Under the pieces are notes generated by a model. That model had not been told where the DNA came from. It did no database searches and was given only the letters and a program-made list of their open reading frames with translations. A program made the translations under genes and the position numbers. Below are positions 1-12,127 of a stretch of DNA of 64,000 nucleotides, one piece after another. The stretch is taken from positions 192,001 to 256,000 of IMG/VR virus record IMGVR_UViG_3300015615_000196; one strand, given 5' to 3'. The stretch is from a virus (Duplodnaviria; Caudoviricetes). Position 1 is the first letter of the stretch, and every line of letters starts with the position of its first letter.

Positions 1-13
1 AACGTAACCAAAA

Positions 14-95
14 TTTGTGGCTATGGTGTAAGTTACTTCCGCTCGAAAGAGCACCTGATGGTTAATCAAGAACTACTGACACTGATTTCCACAAA
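14..95 (+). ncRNA. Candidate structured ncRNA, repeat unit 1
   Basis: Closing stem TTTGTGG(14-20)/CCACAAA(89-95); boxes GGCTAT, GTTACTTC, AACTAC and TTTCC shared with unit 2 at identical spacing; internal GCTC-GAAA-GAGC hairpin (41-52). Confidence 0.65.
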
Positions 96-100
96 CCCAT

Positions 101-167
101 ATTCTGGCTATTGATCCGGTTACTTCAACTACAATTGGTAACAACTACCGTTTCGCCTTTCCAGAAT
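101..167 (+). ncRNA. Candidate structured ncRNA, repeat unit 2
   Basis: Closing stem ATTCTGG(101-107)/CCAGAAT(161-167); same four boxes as unit 1; stems differ in sequence but keep pairing. Confidence 0.65.
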
Positions 168-209: not shown

Positions 210-2387
210 ATGAACACTATCAAAGAAAAAACCGCAAAGACCTCAGTCGCAACTGCTACGGCAATGACGAAGGCACAAATCGCTCTTCAAAGAGGATTTT
301 TAGTACCTACAGGTGGACTTGTTGCTCCGGTGAGCAAGCAAGAACGATTCACCATGCAAGCTGAATTGATGCAGTTCGGATACATGTTGTCCGAAGATGC
401 ACTTGGCGTTGTAACCATCGAATGGTTCAACGAAGTAATGCCGTTCTTAAAAAGAACGTTGGGCGTAGGTGCGTACATGGGTGCGTACATGCCATTCTAC
501 AAGAACTTCCCGACTCAGGTAATGGAGTTGAGTCACGTTGAGTTGTATCTCAATGCGGTCATGCATTACTGGTCATTGGGTACGTGGGAACCTGCCTACG
601 AACTCCGTGAAAGAGGCTTCGCGTTTGAAAACACGAAGTTCACAACTATCAAGTTGGGAACAGAAGATCAGTTCAATGCGATCTTCACGACATTGGTGTC
701 GATCAACCAGTCTATTACTGAAAACGACAAGAAAGTTGTTGAGTGGTTCATCCAGAACTATTCACACAGCTTGATATTCCCGAAGACCATCCCGTTCAAG
801 GAAACTCTTTGTATGCTTGCCGGACACGGCTTGAATGTTCCAATTACGTCTGCAACGGACGTATTGAGAATTGCCGTATACCTTTCAGGTGGTGACATTT
901 CATTGCCAGCCGTACCACGAATAACGGTGAAGGAAGTACGTCCGGGAAGAAAGGAAGTGTTCTTCCGTAACCTTTTGAACTCGCAGACAGAAGCGAGAGA
1001 AAAGTTCAAGTTCAAGAACTTGAGCCGTGCAAAGAGAAAGTATTTGCTTTCATTGCTTGAAGGAACCAAGATCGACTTGGGCGAAATGAAATTGCGTCTT
1101 GAAAGATGGATTCGTCTTGGCGAAGTTCTTCACGTAGGTGAATTCAAGAACCGTTTCCCGAAAGCATACGAAGCGTTCTACGCTATCCGTAATGCTGCGG
1201 ACGAAATCCGTACATTCGAGTCTACGCTTGAAGAAGCGTTTACCAATGCTTACATCACTGGTGGTGAAGCAGAACTTAACACGGCCTTGAATCTCTTGTC
1301 AAAGAGACCGGGTATGTTTGCAAGAAGACTTGACTGGTTGTTGAGAACGTTCGACCCGAACGTTGTTCTTCCAGCCTTCAAGAAGATTGCCATGAAGGTA
1401 AGCAAGAAAGTATTGTGGGAACTCTACAATCACTTCATCAAGCGTGATACTGTGTCACCGAGAATGGTGATGATCAAGGGTAAGAAAGCAACCAAAGTTA
1501 CTTTGGATGCATTGCCAGCAATGAGCAAAATCTTGATCACCAAGATTCAGGGTATGATCTTGGAATGTTTGGGACAACACTTCGCACAACTTGATAAGTT
1601 GGGTAAGGTGTATGTTGACGAACGTTTGAAGAAGATTCCGTTGCCTACGGCAATGAGAAGTGTGAACACTTCGGTGAAGACCTACATGAGAGGTACGAGA
1701 GTACCATTCAATGACAATGCAAAGGTTATCAGACCTTATATTCACTGGTTCGACCAGTATGGTCACGAAGACCTTGACTTGAGCGTTGCATTCTACGATG
1801 CACACTTGAGAGGTAAGGATCATATCTCGTACACGAATTTGAAGATTCAACATCTTAACTCATGCCACTCAGGTGACGTGAGACACAGACAAGGTGCGTG
1901 TGCAGAATACGTGGACATTGATATTGCTGCTTGCTTACAGCACGGCATCAGATATGCAATGGTACAGGTGCATAACTTCCAGAACAGACCAATGCACACG
2001 ATGAAAGACTGCGTGTTCGGTTTGATGGAAAGAGAATTCCCGGAATCAAATCCGATCTTCGTCCCGAAGACTATCACCAATGCAGTAGCAGTGGCGAACG
2101 AAAGTTCAACTGTGTGTATTGCAGTGTTGGATTTGAAGGAAAAGGAATACATCTGGCTTGACCTTGAGTTACAATCAAGAGGTTTGGCTAACCTTGAAAG
2201 CACTTCAAGCATGGCTCACAAGCTGATCAAAGGTGCAATCGACAGTGCAATTCTGTCAGTGTACGACTTGTTGTCAATCCATGCTGACGCAAGAGGTGTT
2301 GCAATCCTGAACAAGGAAGCTGCGGATACCGTATTCGAATACGAAGACTTTGTAACAAGCTATGACAAAGTGGCGACTTACATGTAA
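210..2387 (+). CDS. Large helical protein with C-terminal TerD-like domain
   Basis: 725 aa; C-terminal DLDLSVAFYD...HSGDV...AEYVDIDI...VQVHNF pattern typical of TerD-type domains; N-terminal PFYKNFPTQV and RPGMFARRLD motifs. Confidence 0.7.
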   Translation: MNTIKEKTAKTSVATATAMTKAQIALQRGFLVPTGGLVAPVSKQERFTMQAELMQFGYMLSEDALGVVTIEWFNEVMPFLKRTLGVGAYMGAYMPFYKNFPTQVMELSHVELYLNAVMHYWSLGTWEPAYELRERGFAFENTKFTTIKLGTEDQFNAIFTTLVSINQSITENDKKVVEWFIQNYSHSLIFPKTIPFKETLCMLAGHGLNVPITSATDVLRIAVYLSGGDISLPAVPRITVKEVRPGRKEVFFRNLLNSQTEAREKFKFKNLSRAKRKYLLSLLEGTKIDLGEMKLRLERWIRLGEVLHVGEFKNRFPKAYEAFYAIRNAADEIRTFESTLEEAFTNAYITGGEAELNTALNLLSKRPGMFARRLDWLLRTFDPNVVLPAFKKIAMKVSKKVLWELYNHFIKRDTVSPRMVMIKGKKATKVTLDALPAMSKILITKIQGMILECLGQHFAQLDKLGKVYVDERLKKIPLPTAMRSVNTSVKTYMRGTRVPFNDNAKVIRPYIHWFDQYGHEDLDLSVAFYDAHLRGKDHISYTNLKIQHLNSCHSGDVRHRQGACAEYVDIDIAACLQHGIRYAMVQVHNFQNRPMHTMKDCVFGLMEREFPESNPIFVPKTITNAVAVANESSTVCIAVLDLKEKEYIWLDLELQSRGLANLESTSSMAHKLIKGAIDSAILSVYDLLSIHADARGVAILNKEAADTVFEYEDFVTSYDKVATYM

Positions 2388-2462: not shown

Positions 2463-2494
2463 AATGCCTCACAGATTTTCTGTGGGGCATTTTT
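2463..2494 (+). terminator. Rho-independent terminator
   Basis: AATGCCTCACAGA-TTT-TCTGTGGGGCATT hairpin followed by a T run. Confidence 0.85.
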
Positions 2495-2632: not shown

Positions 2633-3574
2633 ATGCCATTTTTCACCAGACCCGACCTATCGGATACACAGTTCAAACAATTGACTGGATCGACATTGAC
2701 TATGTCGGGTTCAACCAATTATATTGGAGTATTGAAGTCCAAAGGTACTGAAATTGATGCTACGTTAACTGGCGCAACTTCGGCAACTACCGGACACGTT
2801 CTCACATACCTTGCAGGAAAGATAAGATTGGCTCCTTCATCAGGAGGTAACTCAGCATTCAATAGTAGCAGATCAACAACCAGAGCAGGGATTCCATCAG
2901 TAAACGTTGGTGGATCAAATGTCAATCAATTTTTGGAAGGATACTTCTTTCCATCAGTACCACCCGATGCGGTGATAAGTGGTGGAGGAACCCGACAATT
3001 TGGCAATAATGCTGGCCTGACTTTAAACTGGACTGCAACCAGAAGAACACAACCAATTACATCGATCACGGTTAATGGTCTTTCGGTTCCATCAGGATTC
3101 TTCTCGGCTCTTCCACAAAATGGAAGTGTATCGAGTGCTACAACAGCAACGATTGCGACACCAAATACAAACCAAACTTATCCGATGAACGTAACAACCG
3201 CATCAGAAAGTGTAAATGCAAGTACATCAATTGTGTTTAGCCACAAGAGATATTTTTATGGTGATAACCAAGATGTGATTGCATTCACTGATCCGAACAC
3301 AAGTTCGAACGTAAACTTACACGATCCAGCAAATGCAGAATTTGCTGGATCAAGAGTAAAAGGAACATTTGCTATCACTTTGAGTGGTCAGTTCTTTTAC
3401 TACGTGTATCCAACATCATTTGGTGCTGCATCATTCACGATTAACGGTTTGTCGAACACTGACTTTACTTTCAAGGACTTTACGTTCACAAACCCATTTG
3501 GATTTGCAACAACGTTCAGAATGTATAGAAGCAATAACATATTAAATGGCACATTCAACATAGCTGTGTCTTAA
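2633..3574 (+). CDS. Virion structural/fibre-like protein
   Basis: 313 aa, Thr/Ser/Gly-rich beta-type sequence; N-terminal motif shared with 12160 ORF; first gene after late motif. Confidence 0.6.
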   Translation: MPFFTRPDLSDTQFKQLTGSTLTMSGSTNYIGVLKSKGTEIDATLTGATSATTGHVLTYLAGKIRLAPSSGGNSAFNSSRSTTRAGIPSVNVGGSNVNQFLEGYFFPSVPPDAVISGGGTRQFGNNAGLTLNWTATRRTQPITSITVNGLSVPSGFFSALPQNGSVSSATTATIATPNTNQTYPMNVTTASESVNASTSIVFSHKRYFYGDNQDVIAFTDPNTSSNVNLHDPANAEFAGSRVKGTFAITLSGQFFYYVYPTSFGAASFTINGLSNTDFTFKDFTFTNPFGFATTFRMYRSNNILNGTFNIAVS

Positions 3575-3587
3575 AAGATAAAGAAGG

Positions 3588-6131
3588 ATGTCAAATTTAT
3601 TAGGAACCGTAGTAGCCTCACCGATAGTACAAGGAGCAAGTACAATTGACTCTTACGGTACTCACTATGCCTTTCTTGGTGTGGGTGGTTACCAAGAGTA
3701 CTTAACCCTTGCGGAAAGAGACGCGATCTTGATTGACCCGCTTAACAGATTGGGTGATGATGGTCTTTCTTCTGGCCGTAGAAGATTGGGTATGCTCGTG
3801 TATGTCTCTGAGACAAACATCGTATATCAATTAAACATTGCCTACAACTCATGGACTGGTATGACCAGTGCAGCGAAAGTTGCAGCACTTGCAAACAATT
3901 CAAACTGGATTGAATATGCATCTGGCAGTGGCGGTGACGCGATAAAGAAAAGATATAACCAGACTCTTCACGGTTTCAGTGTGGGTCAGGTAATTTCATA
4001 CAACGGAACTTCGTTCCAACTTAAACTTGCAGGGCCAAGCGATACCAACGAAACAATTGGTATGGTCAGCAAGATTGATGATGCAAACAATTTCACTGTA
4101 ACCTATGCTGGTTTCATTGATACGACCGCAATCAGTGGTTTGAGTGCAAACACAGTGTACTATGTATCCCCTGCAATTGCAGGAGCAATTACGCCAGTTG
4201 CACCTTTAAATCTTGGAGAAGAAAATAGACCTATCTTGATCACACAAACAATAACCACAGGTATTGTGGTAATGTATCGTGGTCAGATAATCACAGAAAA
4301 TGTAATTAGTGGTAGTAGTGGTGCAACATATGTTGCCGGGGTTATTGGCCCTGCCGAAGATGGCACATATACTGACGGATTGTTCACGGACTTTGTTCCA
4401 TCAACTCCAACAGGTACGGCAATTGACAGATTCAATGAATTGTTTAAAGTTCTGTCACCACCACCTGCACCAGCGTTGTCAAGTATCTTGAATTCTCCAA
4501 CGTTGAATTCAGCCAAGTTATCATTCGGTGTAAGCCGAAACGATATTGGGTACAGCAATGTAACAACGGCAGCAGGTAACACAGCAGTCGATATTAATGG
4601 TTCATACGTAGTAGGTGGAACCAGAATTGGTGTAACAAATGCATTGGTTAGTGGCCCACTTAATTCTTCTGTTCCAGCAACTTCTGCATATGCAGCAGGT
4701 GCTTTTGATAAAGGAGACGAAGGTAAACTTGAAATGTTTGTAAACGGTGCGTTGATAGGTTCAATAATTCTTAGTGGATCAACAGGAGCAAGTTCAAACT
4801 TCTTCTTCACCTTGAGTGCAGTCTCAGCAGTAACATTTACAAATGGTCAACCGTTGAACGTATTCAAATACAGAACAGGTATTTTCAAAGTAAGAACTGT
4901 TGATATGGTCAATGGTTTTAACTATGTAAGAGTACAACATACAAAACCAAGTGGGAACTTACTTACAAACTATTTGGAGTGGGTATATGATCCAAATGCA
5001 ACAACATTATCTGCTACGGGATCAGGACTTAGCGGTCTTACCTTGACAGGCAGTAGATTTATTTCAGGTGTAAGATACAATACAGGTGGTACTGTGGTCT
5101 ACACTACAACAATTAACAACGCATATAAGAACGTATATCCGAACGGAAGCGTAATTACGTATCCTTCAAGAACGAACTTGAGTGATGCTGGTATTATAAC
5201 ACAATCAGGAACAGGATTGACAACAACAATTTCTGCTGTTCGAACATTAACCTCGTTATTGACAGGATCGGTAAGTCCGCAACTTAGTGCGTTGAAACTG
5301 AAATCGAACCACACGTTGTCTAACAATATTTTGGGTAGTGTAGGTTCACTTGGAAAAATTGAAAGCAATATTTCCCTCACCCATCCTCTCAAAGCAACTT
5401 TGACTGGTGGTGTTGCAAGCACAACAGGATTTTTACAATACAACACCATTCAAGCTGCAAACTTGAAGATGGAGAATTTTACTGGTGAAGGAAAAAGACT
5501 TCAAGATAGAGACTACACCTCTTTAACATATGCTAACATCAATGGTGGAACCTATGCATGGGATTCAACTCAAATTTTGACTGGTGGTAACCCACAACAC
5601 AACACAGGTTTACTTGTGTTCAATGGTGAATTGGTTTATCCAAGTGCAGCATATTTAACAACACAGTATGGAATTACGACAGGTAATTTTGCAGCCGTAA
5701 CAAATATTTTGGTTGGCAATCCAAACTATTCAACTGCCAGTGGCGTGAGAGTTTACGATAGATTGTTTACCTCAGCAAATGCTGTTACGCAAGCAACATT
5801 GACAATTGAATTCTTACATACCGGAACAAACAGTAGCTTCTTAACCAATGGTGGAACTGGTGGTACAGCAAGCGGTAACTTCGTTAAAGTTGAAGTTATG
5901 ATTAAAAGATCGGGAGGTCAGACACACGGATGGTTTAATCCATTCGCACCATCTGGCAACCCGGAAGGTGTTGCAAATACGGCAGTCTCAACAATTGCTG
6001 GCGGTACTTCGGTAACGTGTACATTATCAACTGTACCGAGAATTGGTAACGGTGATCTTGTCATTGTGAGAGTTTATGCGGCAGGTGCATGGACAAATAG
6101 AATAAGTAACATTAACGTAGTTAACATATAA
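3588..6131 (+). CDS. Large virion structural protein
   Basis: 847 aa; ERDAI...RRRLGMLVYV fibre motif, HGFSVGQVI decoration-like domain; C-terminal ~600 aa paralogous to 6133 ORF. Confidence 0.65.
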   Translation: MSNLLGTVVASPIVQGASTIDSYGTHYAFLGVGGYQEYLTLAERDAILIDPLNRLGDDGLSSGRRRLGMLVYVSETNIVYQLNIAYNSWTGMTSAAKVAALANNSNWIEYASGSGGDAIKKRYNQTLHGFSVGQVISYNGTSFQLKLAGPSDTNETIGMVSKIDDANNFTVTYAGFIDTTAISGLSANTVYYVSPAIAGAITPVAPLNLGEENRPILITQTITTGIVVMYRGQIITENVISGSSGATYVAGVIGPAEDGTYTDGLFTDFVPSTPTGTAIDRFNELFKVLSPPPAPALSSILNSPTLNSAKLSFGVSRNDIGYSNVTTAAGNTAVDINGSYVVGGTRIGVTNALVSGPLNSSVPATSAYAAGAFDKGDEGKLEMFVNGALIGSIILSGSTGASSNFFFTLSAVSAVTFTNGQPLNVFKYRTGIFKVRTVDMVNGFNYVRVQHTKPSGNLLTNYLEWVYDPNATTLSATGSGLSGLTLTGSRFISGVRYNTGGTVVYTTTINNAYKNVYPNGSVITYPSRTNLSDAGIITQSGTGLTTTISAVRTLTSLLTGSVSPQLSALKLKSNHTLSNNILGSVGSLGKIESNISLTHPLKATLTGGVASTTGFLQYNTIQAANLKMENFTGEGKRLQDRDYTSLTYANINGGTYAWDSTQILTGGNPQHNTGLLVFNGELVYPSAAYLTTQYGITTGNFAAVTNILVGNPNYSTASGVRVYDRLFTSANAVTQATLTIEFLHTGTNSSFLTNGGTGGTASGNFVKVEVMIKRSGGQTHGWFNPFAPSGNPEGVANTAVSTIAGGTSVTCTLSTVPRIGNGDLVIVRVYAAGAWTNRISNINVVNI

Positions 6132-6132
6132 G

Positions 6133-9100
6133 ATGGGCTTAAACACATTAAATACAGGTGCGATCTCTTTCAAGAGACTAAGCGGTAAAGCACATACCCA
6201 ACAGAACTTTGCTGTCACAGAAGAAAGCATTGGCTCAAACGTTAGTTTGTCATTTGCAACTGTGTTCGGTAAGGCAATTCAACCTAAACCACTTACGGTA
6301 GGTGGATTGACTGCGTTGTATGCAACTGATAATAAAGTTGAACGAGTAAGATTTGACGTAGAAATAATTCCAGATACATTGATTGGTACTAACCAGTCTC
6401 AGGGTTACAGATTGAAATTACCTATCGGTTACACTGGTAGTGGTAAATTGGGTTCACACTATAGTGGTGGTACAAAATTATACACTGCTCTTGGTAAACT
6501 TCAAATCGTCCCATCATTATATGGCACAGTAAAGCCAGATGGTTCAACTGAGTACGATCCGATTTTGTATCAAACAAACGGCACAACAGTAATTCCTAAG
6601 TTCGATCCCATCAATTGGATTATCGACAATTATAGTGGGATTTTGTTCGTACAAGACCCGCCAGCAGGATTTGACATCAGTGCTGCAAGACCGGGATACG
6701 TTGAAGCATTCTTATACGTAGGAGATTATCTTGATCAAGTAATTGCGAGTGGTGTTACTGGAAGTTCAGTGGATTGGAGCAACATCGCTAACAAGCCATT
6801 GGTATTCCCACCAGCACCACACACACATCCGATCTCTGGTGTAACTGGATTGCAGGGTGCATTGAATTCAAAAATAGATATTGCGAATATTGGAATGAGT
6901 GGTGGATCGCCAACAACACATGTTGCACCATTGGATGGTAATAACATCATACCACCGATATACATTCCTTCAATATTCAAAGAAGTATATGTTGTGCCAA
7001 CAATTGCTGCAAGAACTGCACGATTTGTTGCATCTGGTAGTACACCGGGGCCGGGACAAGTTGAATCATTTGAAGGTTTAAGAGTTTATGTACTTGATTG
7101 TACTGGTGCACCAGAATTACCTACTGGAACAACTGGTAGCTGTGAGTCGATTGATACAACTGGTTTCTTAAACTGGTCAGCAATCACGTCATCACAATTC
7201 GTGAATACCGATTGGACATCAATATCAGGTAAGCCACCACTCGTAAATCAAATTATTCCGGGTGCGGGTATTAGTGTCTTGCCTCTCGGTGGAACAGGAT
7301 ATACTACGGTCGATGTTAAAACTGATAGTTCATACATTACTACATTAGTGCCATCTGGAAAATTGACAATCAAAGATTTGTCAATCGATCCACGTAAGAT
7401 GAAATTCCAAGGAGGACTTACGGGTACGACTGGTCAATATATTATCAGAGGATCGGGAGATACATTCCAAGCTGTTAATTTACCATTTACCGGAGTGAGT
7501 ACAGTAACAGCCGCGAGTGGTATAACAAATATTGGAACAGCACCAAATCCTATTTTGGTTGCTCAAGTTGATACTGCGGACGGTAGTATCGAAAAGACAT
7601 CATTAGGTATCCGTGTTACAAATAACACGATTGGCACGACCAAATTGAATTTGGGTTCAGGCCCGACACAATTCAATGCCGACTTGTTACCACTAAACAC
7701 AGGTACAACTTACATGGGTGCAACCGATGTTGGAACTGCAATTGAAAAACTCGCAACGGGTATTACTGCATTGAATACTGTCGCTCTTACTGGTGCAACA
7801 AACATCGGTACTGGTGAAGGACACATATTCACTTCGGTGACTGCACATAAGACACAATTGAAAGGAATCAAACACGGTAATCACATTGCAGTAAGTGAAA
7901 ACGGTACTGATATTACGATTGCGGTAACTGGTATTAGTGCAACAACTGGTAGCACAATTGGCCCTGCCGAAGACGGAAGTTATTTGGATGGTTTGTTTAC
8001 AGACTTTATCCCGGCAACTCCTACTGGTACAGCCGTTGACAGATTCAACGTAGTGTTGAAAGCATTAGCACCGCCACCTGCACCTAACTTAACAGGGGCA
8101 ACAGGAAGCGGTACGTTTGTCGCGGGTAAGCTATCATTTGGTTCATCGAAACCAATTGTTGGCTTTACGAACGTTGGTACAAACGCAGGTAATCCTGCCG
8201 TTGACATTAACGGTAACTATGCAATTGGTGGAACCAGATTAGGTTTGACCAGCGTAGCGATTACTGGTGTATTAAACAGCAGCGTTGTCGGTGGAGGTGG
8301 TGGAATACCATACAATAACACGGCATTCGGTGATGGTGAAAAAGGTAAGTTGATTATGTACAAGAATGGTGTAGTGTTTAGCCAATTGGTTCTTTCAGCA
8401 ACAACAGCTTCAACAAGCAATGCACACATGTCAGTATCAGCAGTTGCAGCAGTGAAGTTTGCAAGTGGTCAACCATTGAACGTATTCAAATACAGAACAG
8501 GAACATTTAGCATTCCGCTTTCAGCAATGACAACGGGATATAATTATATCAGAATTGTGCACACAGGATCAACATTCAGCAGACAAACCAACTTCTTAGA
8601 GTGGGTTTACGATAACGATGCTTCAAACATCGGATTGATCGGCCCTACTGGTTTGACCAACGTAACTCTTGGTGGTACTAAATTTATCTCAGGTGTTAAG
8701 TTCAATACAGGAGGTACAGTACAATATCAAGCAACGTTCTCGAATGCATACAAGAACGTATATAGCAATTCGGCAACGGCAATCGACTTCATTGCAAAAG
8801 ACAATCTTGGTGCAATGACTTTGATGGATGTAACGGGTGGCGGTATTGTTGCCAGATTGACAAGTCCGTTGCAGACACTTCCAAATTTGGATACTGCTGC
8901 ATCGAACCCACAGAACACGAACATTACGATCCTTGGTACGTTACCGATCAACGTATCACAGATTTTGGGTAACGTTGGATTGTTAGGTAGAGTGAGATCA
9001 AGCGTAAGTGTATTGCATCCATTCACTGCACAGCAATTCTCAGGAGCACAATCAACATTGACTGGATTCTTGGTTAACAACGTAACACAATCATCGAACT

Positions 9101-9771
9101 TGAACAATGAAACATTCGATGGTGAAATTGATAGATTGGAAGCAAGAGATTACTCAGTCCTCACATATGCAAACGTAAACGGTGGAACATATGCATGGAC
9201 AAGTTCTCAGAATTTGATAACTGGTAACGCACAACATAACACAGGCTTGCTTGTGTTTAATGGTGAGTTGATGTATCCAAATGCAGCGTACTTAACAACG
9301 CAGTACGGTATTACTACTGGTAACTTCGCAGGTGTGACATTCGCACCAGTGGGTAACCCGAACTATACCACTGCCTCTTTGTCGAGAGACTACTACAGAA
9401 AGTTCAAGTCTGCAAACGGCACGACACAATCAACGTTGACATTTACCATCACACATAGTGGTGCAGCAGGTGATTTCTTGACGAACGGTGGAACGGGTGG
9501 TGTACCGCCAACTGCAAATAATATTAAGGTTGAATTCTTAATCATGAGAAGTGGTGGTGCAATTCACGGATGGGCAAACCCATTCGCCCCTTCTGGTAAC
9601 CCGGAAGGTATTGCAAACACATCAACTTCACAGGTTGGTAACTTGATGACTGTATCATGCACGTTGGCTACAACTCCAAGAGTTGCAATCAATGACATCG
9701 TGGTTGTGAGAATATTCACATCAAGCAGCTACTCAAATAGAATTTTGAACTTGGCAGTAACTAACATATAA
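6133..9771 (+). CDS. Large virion structural protein (mosaic)
   Basis: 1212 aa; N-terminus paralogous to 9794 ORF, C-terminus paralogous to 3588 ORF (IGPAEDGxYxDGLFTDF onward). Confidence 0.65.
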   Translation: MGLNTLNTGAISFKRLSGKAHTQQNFAVTEESIGSNVSLSFATVFGKAIQPKPLTVGGLTALYATDNKVERVRFDVEIIPDTLIGTNQSQGYRLKLPIGYTGSGKLGSHYSGGTKLYTALGKLQIVPSLYGTVKPDGSTEYDPILYQTNGTTVIPKFDPINWIIDNYSGILFVQDPPAGFDISAARPGYVEAFLYVGDYLDQVIASGVTGSSVDWSNIANKPLVFPPAPHTHPISGVTGLQGALNSKIDIANIGMSGGSPTTHVAPLDGNNIIPPIYIPSIFKEVYVVPTIAARTARFVASGSTPGPGQVESFEGLRVYVLDCTGAPELPTGTTGSCESIDTTGFLNWSAITSSQFVNTDWTSISGKPPLVNQIIPGAGISVLPLGGTGYTTVDVKTDSSYITTLVPSGKLTIKDLSIDPRKMKFQGGLTGTTGQYIIRGSGDTFQAVNLPFTGVSTVTAASGITNIGTAPNPILVAQVDTADGSIEKTSLGIRVTNNTIGTTKLNLGSGPTQFNADLLPLNTGTTYMGATDVGTAIEKLATGITALNTVALTGATNIGTGEGHIFTSVTAHKTQLKGIKHGNHIAVSENGTDITIAVTGISATTGSTIGPAEDGSYLDGLFTDFIPATPTGTAVDRFNVVLKALAPPPAPNLTGATGSGTFVAGKLSFGSSKPIVGFTNVGTNAGNPAVDINGNYAIGGTRLGLTSVAITGVLNSSVVGGGGGIPYNNTAFGDGEKGKLIMYKNGVVFSQLVLSATTASTSNAHMSVSAVAAVKFASGQPLNVFKYRTGTFSIPLSAMTTGYNYIRIVHTGSTFSRQTNFLEWVYDNDASNIGLIGPTGLTNVTLGGTKFISGVKFNTGGTVQYQATFSNAYKNVYSNSATAIDFIAKDNLGAMTLMDVTGGGIVARLTSPLQTLPNLDTAASNPQNTNITILGTLPINVSQILGNVGLLGRVRSSVSVLHPFTAQQFSGAQSTLTGFLVNNVTQSSNLNNETFDGEIDRLEARDYSVLTYANVNGGTYAWTSSQNLITGNAQHNTGLLVFNGELMYPNAAYLTTQYGITTGNFAGVTFAPVGNPNYTTASLSRDYYRKFKSANGTTQSTLTFTITHSGAAGDFLTNGGTGGVPPTANNIKVEFLIMRSGGAIHGWANPFAPSGNPEGIANTSTSQVGNLMTVSCTLATTPRVAINDIVVVRIFTSSSYSNRILNLAVTNI

Positions 9772-9793
9772 GATAAAAATTGACGATAAGTAA

Positions 9794-12127
9794 ATGGCAC
9801 TAAATCCCACAAATACAGGAGCAATCTCATTCAAGAAATTGAGTGGAAAGGCACATACACAACAGAATTTTGCTGTGACGGAAGAAGGCATTGCAACAAA
9901 CGTGCAAATGTCGTATGCAACCGTATTTGCTAATCCAATCGAACCACTTCCAGTGACCAACTCTGGTTTGACTACATTGTATTCAACCAACGGTATTGTC
10001 GAGAGAGTTAAATTCCAAATTGATCTTATTCCAGATACGCAAATTGCTGTCGGTAAGTCTCAAGGTTATAAATTAAAATTACCTTCTGACTATAACACCT
10101 TTGGTGAACTTTATCCTCAATTTTCAGCAGGTACATATTTGTACACAGCACTCGGTAAACTTCAAATCGTACCTGCACTTTATGGTAAATTGAAACCAGA
10201 TGGCTCGACAGAATACGATCCAATTTTGTATCAAACAAACGGTTCAACTGTAATTCCGAAATTTGATCCGATCAACTGGTATATTGATCCATATGATGGT
10301 ATCTTGTTTGTACAAGACCCACCAGCAGGATATGATACAAGTGCAAGTAGACCCGGCTATCTCGAAGCCTTTTTGTATGTAGGTGACTATGTTGATGACT
10401 TGTTGAATATTATGACAACAGGTAGTACTGGTACTACTGGTCTTAATGTGGGTGGTGGTGCAGGTGTGTTCAAAGATAAAGTTGGAAACAATTTAAGATT
10501 TAAATCTCTTGTTGGAAGTGGTGGTATTGCTGTGAGTGCACTAACAAATACAATTGCGCTTTCATTTACTGGTTCAACTGGCGGTGGAACAATTACTGGT
10601 GCAACTAATGGTTTACATGTAACTGGTGCAGGTAAAAAAATTGCATTAGGTGGATCATTAACTGGCGATACACAGATCAACGGAGCAGACACACACTTAT
10701 TATTGTTGGGTGGTAATGGCGTACCGGGAAATTTATTAGGTGGATTCTCGGTTTTCACCACAGGAACAACATCAAACGCACCAATTTATTTTGATTGGCA
10801 AGATGGAAATGATCACATCGCACAATATTTTAGTACCTCTGGTTTTAAAACAATTTCATTTGTAACTGAAAATTTATTATCGGGCGATGCTGCACTTCAA
10901 AATTTTCAAACTAATTCAGTACTTACACAAGTATCGAATCCATCAAACTCTGGACAAACAACGGCAACGTTGTACTATGCGTATAACCAAATTCTTTCTC
11001 AAAATAATTTTTCAAATGAAGAATTTGAATTAACTGTTGGATTTGGCACAAGTCAAAGATTCACAAAGAGCGACAACACAAATAATTTACAGAGTGGTTT
11101 GTTCTTCGACAATGGATTATATGGTGTCTATTTAATGGATGCTAACAATAATACGAATGAAGTCGTTAAAATCAATGCCAAACTTAACAATTTCACTATT
11201 GATGATAGTAGAACTGGTGATACACAGACAGGTATTCAATATGCGTCTGATTACTCAGCAAACTATACTGCAAGATCGTTAGTTGATGCTGCTTTTGTAA
11301 CTGGAATGACTTCTGGTAGTTCGGTTAATGCTGCAAACGGTTTAACGAAAATTGGTAGCACCGTTGTACTTGGTGGTTCATTGACTGGTACAACGATAAT
11401 TGCCAGTGATGGTAGTGCAACTGGACAAGAGATCAAGTTTGGTTATTTTGGCCCCGGTCAAAGATTGGGAAGATATAGTGTCTTCACAACTGGTTCAACT
11501 GGAACACAAGAATGGGACTGGACAAATGGTGATGACAACATCAATTTCACATTATTTGCAGATAGTAAATTCATATCAATGCAATCGTCAGACAATGCAA
11601 ATAGCACGTCAAGTAGTATGTTATTGTCTCAGACATATATTACTGCGGGTGCAAGTAATGCAACTGACTCAACGAGTTTCAGTATGTTACCGAATGCATT
11701 TATTATTCAAGGTACAAATACTGCAACATTCCCCGGTGCTCAATACAATGATGACTACACTGCAAACTTCACTGAGAGATCACTTGTCGATAAAGGATAT
11801 GTTGATTCAGCAATTAGCACAGCATTTGCTGTTGAAAGCATAGACAGCGATTCAGGTGTTGATGTTGACACAAGTAACAAATTAATTCTTGTTGATACAA
11901 GTAGCGGCCCTGTGAATATTACTCTAAGTGAAGGTGCGCCAAGTGGAAGAATTGTAAAAATAAAAGACAAGTATGGGGCGGCAAGCACAAATAATATTGT
12001 GGTTGATGGCGATTCGTTTGGAATTGACAATAACACAACGGCAACAATCAACAGTAATTTGGGTGCATTGGAATTAACTTTTAGTTCTGATGATGCAACT
12101 TGGTATGTAACTGGATTTGTGAACTAA
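9794..12127 (+). CDS. Virion fibre-like protein
   Basis: 777 aa; two NGL...LGGSLTG / RSLVD modules; C-terminal ILVDTSSGPVNITL...IKDKYG fibre-type domain. Confidence 0.65.
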   Translation: MALNPTNTGAISFKKLSGKAHTQQNFAVTEEGIATNVQMSYATVFANPIEPLPVTNSGLTTLYSTNGIVERVKFQIDLIPDTQIAVGKSQGYKLKLPSDYNTFGELYPQFSAGTYLYTALGKLQIVPALYGKLKPDGSTEYDPILYQTNGSTVIPKFDPINWYIDPYDGILFVQDPPAGYDTSASRPGYLEAFLYVGDYVDDLLNIMTTGSTGTTGLNVGGGAGVFKDKVGNNLRFKSLVGSGGIAVSALTNTIALSFTGSTGGGTITGATNGLHVTGAGKKIALGGSLTGDTQINGADTHLLLLGGNGVPGNLLGGFSVFTTGTTSNAPIYFDWQDGNDHIAQYFSTSGFKTISFVTENLLSGDAALQNFQTNSVLTQVSNPSNSGQTTATLYYAYNQILSQNNFSNEEFELTVGFGTSQRFTKSDNTNNLQSGLFFDNGLYGVYLMDANNNTNEVVKINAKLNNFTIDDSRTGDTQTGIQYASDYSANYTARSLVDAAFVTGMTSGSSVNAANGLTKIGSTVVLGGSLTGTTIIASDGSATGQEIKFGYFGPGQRLGRYSVFTTGSTGTQEWDWTNGDDNINFTLFADSKFISMQSSDNANSTSSSMLLSQTYITAGASNATDSTSFSMLPNAFIIQGTNTATFPGAQYNDDYTANFTERSLVDKGYVDSAISTAFAVESIDSDSGVDVDTSNKLILVDTSSGPVNITLSEGAPSGRIVKIKDKYGAASTNNIVVDGDSFGIDNNTTATINSNLGALELTFSSDDATWYVTGFVN

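What the first reader, a model, noticed from the sequence alone, without database searches (positions are those of the whole stretch)
14..167. Tandem covarying structured-RNA repeats directly upstream of a TerD-domain gene (candidate ncRNA-array/protein system)
Seen: two units 5 nt apart share the layout [stem]-GGCTAT-N7-GTTACTTC-[variable hairpin insert]-AACTAC-N9-TTTCC-[stem] with identical N7/N9 spacing. The outer stems differ yet pair (TTTGTGG/CCACAAA; ATTCTGG/CCAGAAT). The N7 and N9 segments also differ yet pair with each other (GGTGTAAGT/ACTGACACT 8 of 9; TGATCCGGT/ACCGTTTCG 7 of 9). The inserts differ in length (31 vs 16 nt). Conserved loops with compensatory stems point to a functional RNA rather than a DNA repeat, and this is not CRISPR or tRNA. 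Inference: the end of an array, probably continuing left of the window, whose units are bound by the adjacent 725-aa protein. This would parallel Ro60/Y-RNA complexes, with a fixed protein-binding scaffold carrying a variable payload.
Basis: partly seen in the sequence, partly recalled or inferred. Interest (0 to 1): 0.88.

Follow-up and report, generated by a model that had tools for sequence, protein, structure and literature searches.

The report
Anticodon-displaying RNAs beside Ro-like TerD gene
A giant phage carries three small folded RNAs, two of them tipped with look-alikes of tRNA anticodon arms, in front of an unstudied protein gene, and the same RNA-protein pair recurs in many phages and bacteria, probably as an undescribed cousin of the Ro60/Y-RNA particle that deals with tRNA-cutting enzymes.

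Summary
Observation confirmed. Units at 14-95 and 101-167 are real; a third lies just left of the window, so the array has three units. The genome is a 363-kb phage. The units belong to a large RNA family absent from Rfam. A structure-blind alignment of 70 units shows strong covariation (363 double-sided changes against 129 shuffled). The RNA tracks the 725-aa protein: 88 of 100 homolog loci carry it, and in 121 Pyrinomonadaceae genomes the same three have both. The protein has a TerD fold at the C-terminus and a helical body that resembles the Ro60 ring only weakly (Z 6-7, no sequence match). Key result: the variable inserts are enriched for anticodon stem-loop look-alikes (26 of 124 against 2.0 shuffled; 7 of 39 against 1.7 in held-out loci). 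Relatives graft whole tRNA bodies onto the same handle, and some lie beside RtcB. Best reading: a Ro60/Y-RNA-like particle that displays tRNA parts as bait or recruiter in tRNA damage and repair. Binding, expression and function are untested. It is not a Y RNA or Ro60 by family tests. This scan has reported the same system before on other genomes.

The parts
1..13 (+). End of the spacer that joins unit 1 to unit 0. Unit 0 itself lies left of the window (G000:C1:191884-191956; L001:15884-15956); its insert is a 5-bp stem with a 7-nt loop, 14/17 identical to the phage's own tRNA-Thr(CGU) anticodon arm, and same-position units in relatives carry Ile(UAU)- or Met(CAU)-type loops
   Evidence: 5 of 2000 shuffles reach 14/17
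14..95 (+). Unit 1: outer helix 14-20/89-95, conserved internal loop, inner helix 25-33/75-83, conserved UACUUC 34-39, insert 40-74
41..52 (+). GAAA-tetraloop hairpin in the insert of unit 1
54..70 (+). Degenerate tRNA-Asn(GUU) anticodon-arm look-alike in unit 1: 14/17 identical to the phage's tRNA-Asn arm, but positions 32-33 are changed (no U33). The same-position unit in L003 has the exact Asn loop (15/17)
   Evidence: 3 of 2000 shuffles
101..167 (+). Unit 2: same handle; short insert with the ATTGG word of a second recurring insert class; not an anticodon arm by my tests
   Evidence: 11/17, not significant
210..2387 (+). 725-aa protein: helical body (basic in residues 210-482: 49 K+R against 29 D+E, invariant arginines) plus TerD-fold domain (503-676); RING-less relative of the MXAN_6230/SCO0854 (Prok-RING_4) family
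2463..2491 (+). Intrinsic-terminator-like hairpin closing the cassette
   Evidence: pattern match only

Best explanation
The three units are genes for small trans-acting RNAs of about 70-80 nt. Their conserved two-helix handle is the binding site for the adjacent helical+TerD protein, and the variable tip displays a piece of tRNA. SHOWN: conserved covarying fold; linkage to this one protein family; tips enriched for anticodon stem-loops, with T-arms and whole tRNA bodies in relatives; TerD fold. INFERRED: the RNAs are cut from one stable-RNA transcript (GOLLD, two odd tRNA-like elements, three units, gene); the basic helical body grips the handle as Ro60 grips Y RNA; the displayed anticodon arm engages proteins that read tRNA anticodon arms. 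MOST LIKELY ROLE: tRNA damage control. The tip is bait for anticodon nucleases or a docking site for tRNA-repair enzymes such as RtcB, which helps a phage with about 60 tRNAs keep translation running when the host cuts tRNAs. Odds: RNP with this protein about 0.8; tRNA-part display is functional about 0.7; role in tRNA cleavage or repair about 0.5.
For: Covariation: 83% of cells paired against 55% shuffled, 363 double changes against 129. Linkage: 88/100 homolog loci; the same 3 of 121 genomes hold both RNA and protein, adjacent; 14 of 16 viral records with a full RNA match also encode the protein. Units lie upstream or downstream of the gene (27 against 36 loci) and once divergently (L051). 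Tips: 7-nt-loop hairpins 60/124 against 21.0+-4.0; anticodon-like loops 26 against 2.0+-1.4; 21/119 against 1.7 without T-loops; held-out 7/39 against 1.7. Lys(UUU) is the commonest (9 of 35) and recurs with different stems, including in phage XacN1 at 24% protein identity. In Bacteroidota loci one tRNA-like scaffold switches loop between Lys, Arg, Leu and Ile. RtcB-like genes flank such loci (three scanned), RtcR lies near the Variovorax gene, and the phage itself encodes RtcB, two RNA ligases and 61 tRNA calls. Ro60 and Rsr are the only listed PDB chains that align over 250 or more residues at under 6 A. tRNA-Lys is a known target of an anti-phage nuclease (PMC11455837); rsr-yrlBA-rtcBA responds to cut tRNAs (PMC7790460).
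Against: The Ro60 likeness (Z 6.1-6.9) is within the background range for helical proteins, and profile comparison with two TROVE proteins found nothing (thin template). Only about a fifth to a third of inserts are anticodon-like. Window unit 2 is not, and units 0 and 1 lack the canonical U33, which a good nuclease bait should keep. A stem-blind 7-mer test was not significant (22 against 18.8). RtcB is adjacent in only a minority of loci. 12 of 100 loci show no unit within the fetched flanks.
Confidence: 0.55

Rival explanations
1. RNP scaffold for RNA quality control in the RYPER style: the tRNA-like tip tethers a processing enzyme (PNPase, nucleotidyltransferase, phosphoesterase) to the protein, which threads damaged RNA. 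The tips are docking surfaces and are never cut.
For: YrlA-topology relatives exist (38.4 bits against RF02553, cut-off 69). Phosphoesterase, RNA ligase, SmpB, PTH2 and TatD genes are neighbours. Y RNA tethers Rsr to PNPase (PMC4201824).
Against: A fixed enzyme partner predicts a fixed tip, but the anticodon identity varies between paralogs and between species.
Confidence: 0.2
2. The particle is real but the tips are relics: units arose from tRNA genes captured on the handle, the anticodon arm is what is left, and only the handle matters (for example as a sponge that keeps the protein inactive).
For: Arrays often sit in or near tRNA clusters. Window tips resemble the phage's own tRNA arms but have lost U33. 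Many tips are short and unstructured.
Against: The same Lys loop is closed by many different compensatory stems, and loops change identity on an unchanged scaffold, which suggests selection on the hairpin.
Confidence: 0.15
3. Cis-regulatory operator: the protein binds these hairpins in its own mRNA leader and controls its own expression.
For: In the window the last unit ends 42 nt before the start codon; many bacteria have one or two units just upstream.
Against: Units are downstream in more loci than upstream, divergent in L051, far from the gene in some records, and fused into tRNA bodies.
Confidence: 0.07
4. DNA-level repeat (CRISPR-like array or recombination site).
For: Tandem units with constant and variable parts.
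Against: Constant parts are internal loops, stems covary with frequent G-U pairs, and 254 of 255 units lie on the gene's strand.
Confidence: 0.02

Closest known systems
Bacterial and phage Ro60 (Rsr) with Y RNAs YrlA/YrlB (Rfam RF02553; PMC4201824; PDB 2nvo, 9l5y)
   Same: Several small RNAs encoded beside one helical protein on the same strand; a stem handle formed by the RNA ends; some members carry a circularly permuted tRNA body; RtcB and RtcR nearby in some loci; weak whole-ring structural likeness.
   Different: The handle lacks the GNCGAAN(0-1)G motif; no Rfam match at cut-off; no TROVE hit; TerD instead of vWA; arrays of up to about ten units; tips show anticodon arms of changing identity; an inverse design also occurs (normal tRNA body with the handle inserted in the anticodon stem).
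MXAN_6230/SCO0854 family (NCBIfam NF041916; Pfam PF14447 Prok-RING_4). From memory, Pfam describes these as helical + ROT/TROVE-like repeats + TerD with a possible RNA-processing role
   Same: Homologous over residues 333-712 (254 bits); predicted structure TM 0.76; a Streptomyces member has a weak unit upstream (20 bits).
   Different: No RING finger here; below the 600-bit cut-off; I found no paper naming a partner RNA (the two Aravind-group papers most likely to mention one were not held).
Phage tRNAs that evade anticodon nucleases (T5 tRNA-Lys against PARIS; PMC11455837)
   Same: A phage RNA with a tRNA anticodon arm, plausibly aimed at tRNA-cutting defences.
   Different: Those are working, cleavage-resistant tRNAs; these are non-translating fragments on a protein-binding handle.

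Membership tests
Y RNA / YrlA (RF02553) | Rfam score at or above the gathering cut-off | tested here: not met
   No hit for the window units; best relatives 38.4, 34.5 and 29.6 bits against 69
Y RNA / YrlA (RF02553) | GNCGAAN(0-1)G Ro-binding motif near the 5' end (PMC4201824) | tested here: not met
   The consensus handle is different
Y RNA / YrlA (RF02553) | At least one RNA per locus with a tRNA-like (T, acceptor, D) domain | tested here: inconclusive
   Present in relatives; the window units carry only anticodon-arm-like tips; two free tRNA-like elements lie upstream
Y RNA / YrlA (RF02553) | Bound in vivo by the neighbouring protein | not testable with these tools
   Needs RIP or EMSA
Ro60/Rsr (TROVE) | TROVE domain (PF05731) by sequence | tested here: not met
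   No Pfam hit in 67 homologs, none in the genome, hhalign probability 0.1% against two TROVE proteins
Ro60/Rsr (TROVE) | C-terminal vWA domain | tested here: not met
   The C-terminal domain is TerD-fold (Z 13.9, rmsd 2.5, 150 aligned)
Ro60/Rsr (TROVE) | Ring-shaped helical-repeat fold | tested here: inconclusive
   9l5y Z 6.9, rmsd 4.9, 251 aligned; 2nvo Z 6.1, rmsd 5.6, 260 aligned; the longest low-rmsd matches, but Z is in the background range
MXAN_6230/SCO0854 (NF041916) | Score of 600 bits or more, and a RING domain | tested here: not met
   254 bits; no PF14447 hit; homologous all the same
TerD fold | TerD beta-sandwich with acidic metal-site motifs | tested here: met
   Fold matches 2qz7 and 2kxt; invariant D521, D523, H553-D556, E566; metal binding itself not tested
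tRNA | Cloverleaf recognised by ARAGORN or RF00005 | tested here: not met
   No call in the window
CRISPR array | Near-identical direct repeats with unique spacers | tested here: not met
   Constant parts are short loops inside covarying stems

The most novel reading that the evidence does not exclude
A widespread modular RNP (about 2,500 protein clusters at 50% identity) in which one protein carries interchangeable small RNAs, each presenting a chosen tRNA anticodon arm as bait or tripwire for tRNA-cutting nucleases. The array would be a programmable panel of which tRNAs are guarded, used by bacteria for sensing damage and by phages for counter-defence.
Probability: 0.3. Interest if true: 0.9.

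Novelty: new variant of a known kind. Interest (0 to 1): 0.74.

Why it matters
It gives a large protein family of no known function (2,569 clusters) a specific candidate RNA partner that is missing from Rfam. It suggests that the Ro60/Y-RNA design has a second, TerD-capped branch in jumbo phages and bacteria. If the anticodon tips are bait, this is a new layer in the conflict over tRNA cleavage. It can be tested with cultured members such as phages XacN1, Weasels2 and LpeD.

Tried and rejected
Rfam at gathering and E-value thresholds: no family for the units. Pfam and PDB sequence searches of the protein: nothing. Foldseek on the N-terminal model: no hit at E <= 0.001. Profile comparison with TROVE: negative, but on a two-sequence template. 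Stem-blind anticodon 7-mer test: not significant, and no depletion of A34 anticodons; the signal appears only when a closing stem is required. Promoter scan: at chance level (8 against 7.2). A hairpin after the stop codon (2390-2456) folds no better than shuffles (z -0.66), so it is rejected as a part. Paper searches for TerD with TROVE, Y RNA or RNA motif, for SCO0854 and for Prok-RING_4 found no description of this RNA. Burroughs and Aravind 2016, Anantharaman 2012 and Sim 2020 were not held, so a prior mention there is not excluded. No complex prediction was run, because the tool does not take RNA.

Full report
Setting. The window is C1:192001-256000 of a 362,603-bp virus record with terminal repeats, a jumbo phage with 61 tRNA calls, an RtcB and two RNA ligases. 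Left of the window the order is ribonucleotide-reductase-like ORFs (my reading), a GOLLD RNA (159.8 bits), an odd tRNA-Gln with a non-standard T-loop, a second cloverleaf-like element, then the units, the 725-aa gene and a terminator-like hairpin. GOLLD and odd tRNAs also precede the array in the two closest relatives.

Observation. Both units are as described. A third lies at C1:191884-191956 and there are no more: a covariance model finds three strong hits in the genome and nothing else above 17 bits. No Rfam family or tRNA matches them.

A family. I fetched 132 loci encoding homologs. A motif-plus-pairing scan found 255 units, 254 on the gene's strand. On a MAFFT alignment of 70 diverse units, made without structure, the two helices have 83% of cells paired (55% shuffled), 363 changes on both sides (129 shuffled) and a covariation score of 0.68 (0.19 shuffled; 0.12-0.20 with slid partners). 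The units were selected for pairing, so these figures lean upward, but all four Watson-Crick pair types occur at most positions while the loops stay nearly invariant. I call the conserved part the handle, a word taken from earlier notes of this scan.

Linkage. The model hits 88 of 100 homolog loci and loci of distant homologs at 22-33% identity in XacN1, Weasels2, LpeD, Bacillus, Variovorax and Streptomyces, some weakly. In the reverse direction, 80 viral loci were found by a DNA pattern alone; 16 had a full model match, and 14 of those records encode the protein, the other two being 16% and 27% complete. None of the 64 loci without a full match encoded it. Among 121 Pyrinomonadaceae genomes, 3 have the protein and the same 3 have the RNA next to it. 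Units are downstream in 36 non-redundant loci, upstream in 27 and on both sides in one, and divergent in L051, which argues for free RNAs and against an mRNA leader. A GTTCTTTR word is ten times enriched around arrays (1.2 against 0.12 per kb); from memory it resembles the boxA antitermination site of stable-RNA operons, which I did not test.

What the tips are. A stem-blind search for anticodon 7-mers gave nothing. With a closing stem required, hairpins with a 7-nt loop are found in 60 of 124 dereplicated inserts (21.0+-4.0 shuffled); the next largest excess, at 9 nt (31 against 17.6), probably reflects the same hairpins. Loops of the form Y-U-N-N-N-R-N occur in 26 (2.0+-1.4 shuffled; 0 of 300), and in 13 of 68 (1.2) at stricter dereplication. 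Without T-loop inserts the count is 21 of 119 against 1.7; Lys(UUU) leads, then Ser, Met/Ile and Pro, on many different stems. In loci not used for discovery, 7 of 39 inserts qualify against 1.7 (1 of 1000 shuffles; with 4-bp stems 3 against 0.6, 17 of 1000). Relatives go further. Some handles close a circularly permuted tRNA body, the YrlA topology. Others sit inside the anticodon stem of a normal tRNA body, whose loop reads Asn in phages and Lys, Arg, Leu or Ile in four Bacteroidota loci. In this phage, units 0 and 1 match its own tRNA-Thr and tRNA-Asn anticodon arms at 14 of 17 bases (5 and 3 of 2000 shuffles; this null does not keep the hairpin, so it is not independent), but both lack U33. 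Unit 2 does not match and belongs to a second insert class with a TTGG word (15 against 7.6), which could be a Gln/Pro loop or a CCA-pairing sequence; I could not tell which.

The protein. It has no Pfam hit and a sub-cut-off match to the MXAN_6230/SCO0854 family, confirmed by predicted structure. The family has 2,569 clusters at 50% identity. The model (pLDDT 83) has a clear TerD fold at 503-676 (Z 13.9). The helical part, folded alone (pLDDT 89), aligns over 251-260 residues at about 5 A with phage Ro60 and Deinococcus Rsr, covering their ring domain; no other listed chain does so, but Z 6-7 is within background, and no sequence link to TROVE was found. This part is basic and has invariant arginines, as expected of an RNA-binding surface. 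Neighbours include RtcB-like ligases, TatD, RtcR, an RNA ligase, a phosphoesterase, SmpB and PTH2, though RtcB is adjacent in only a minority of loci.

Mechanism. Shown: fold, linkage and tRNA-like tips. Inferred: the RNAs are processed from a stable-RNA transcript, the protein binds the handle, and the tip meets proteins that read anticodon arms. The most likely setting is tRNA cleavage and repair, by analogy with the rsr-yrlBA-rtcBA operon that answers cut tRNAs (PMC7790460) and with defences that cut tRNA-Lys (PMC11455837). Whether the tip is bait, sensor, docking site or relic is open. The loss of U33 in this phage's two tips is the main local evidence against simple bait.

Known or new. 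It works like Ro60/Y RNA by design (PMC4201824) but fails the membership tests for both Y RNA and Ro60. I found no paper on this RNA, with the caveat that three relevant papers were not held. I rate it a new variant of a known kind. This scan has flagged the same system on at least a dozen other windows, once with a Lys anticodon tip. Those notes are not independent support; my tip statistics were computed before I saw them.

Noticed in passing
L001:15172-15593 (about 400-830 bases left of the window): GOLLD RNA above the Rfam cut-off directly upstream of the array; also in the two closest relatives L002 and L003.
   Followed up: partly
L001:15735-15884: Two tRNA-like elements with non-standard T-loops between GOLLD and unit 0; the second is missed by ARAGORN but folds as a cloverleaf and is conserved in L003. 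Possibly further mimics.
   Followed up: partly
L001:15957-16013 (ends at window 13): Spacer between units 0 and 1 holds the GTTCTTTR word (boxA-like) and a hairpin that ends just before unit 1.
   Followed up: partly
L281, L282, L283, L285, L288 upstream of the gene: Divergent handle variant (GGTCAA start) in Bacteroidota chromosomes next to RtcB-like genes and TatD; the default model misses most of these units. L281 has the whole RNA block duplicated.
   Followed up: partly
L030:4072-4587 and homologs: A protein of no Pfam family (ORF of 172 aa) follows the array in 54 related phage loci, often with a metallophosphoesterase (43 loci); both may be further parts of the system.
   Followed up: no
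L008:5165-5315, L022, L090: Some units carry a long insert in the 5' strand of the inner helix instead of, or as well as, at the tip.
   Followed up: no
window 2633-12127: Run of large Gly/Thr-rich ORFs with repeated blocks (313, 847, 1212, 777 aa), probably virion structural or tail proteins.
   Followed up: no
G000:C1:54516-54598 and 299220-299292: The phage encodes a tRNA-Leu with the rare AAG anticodon and a tRNA call with a CTA (amber-reading) anticodon; CTA calls also recur in many related loci.
   Followed up: no
L257:3569-3639: In the Mesorhizobium contig a unit with a Ser(UGA)-type tip lies about 30 kb from the gene, so copies can be dispersed.
   Followed up: partly
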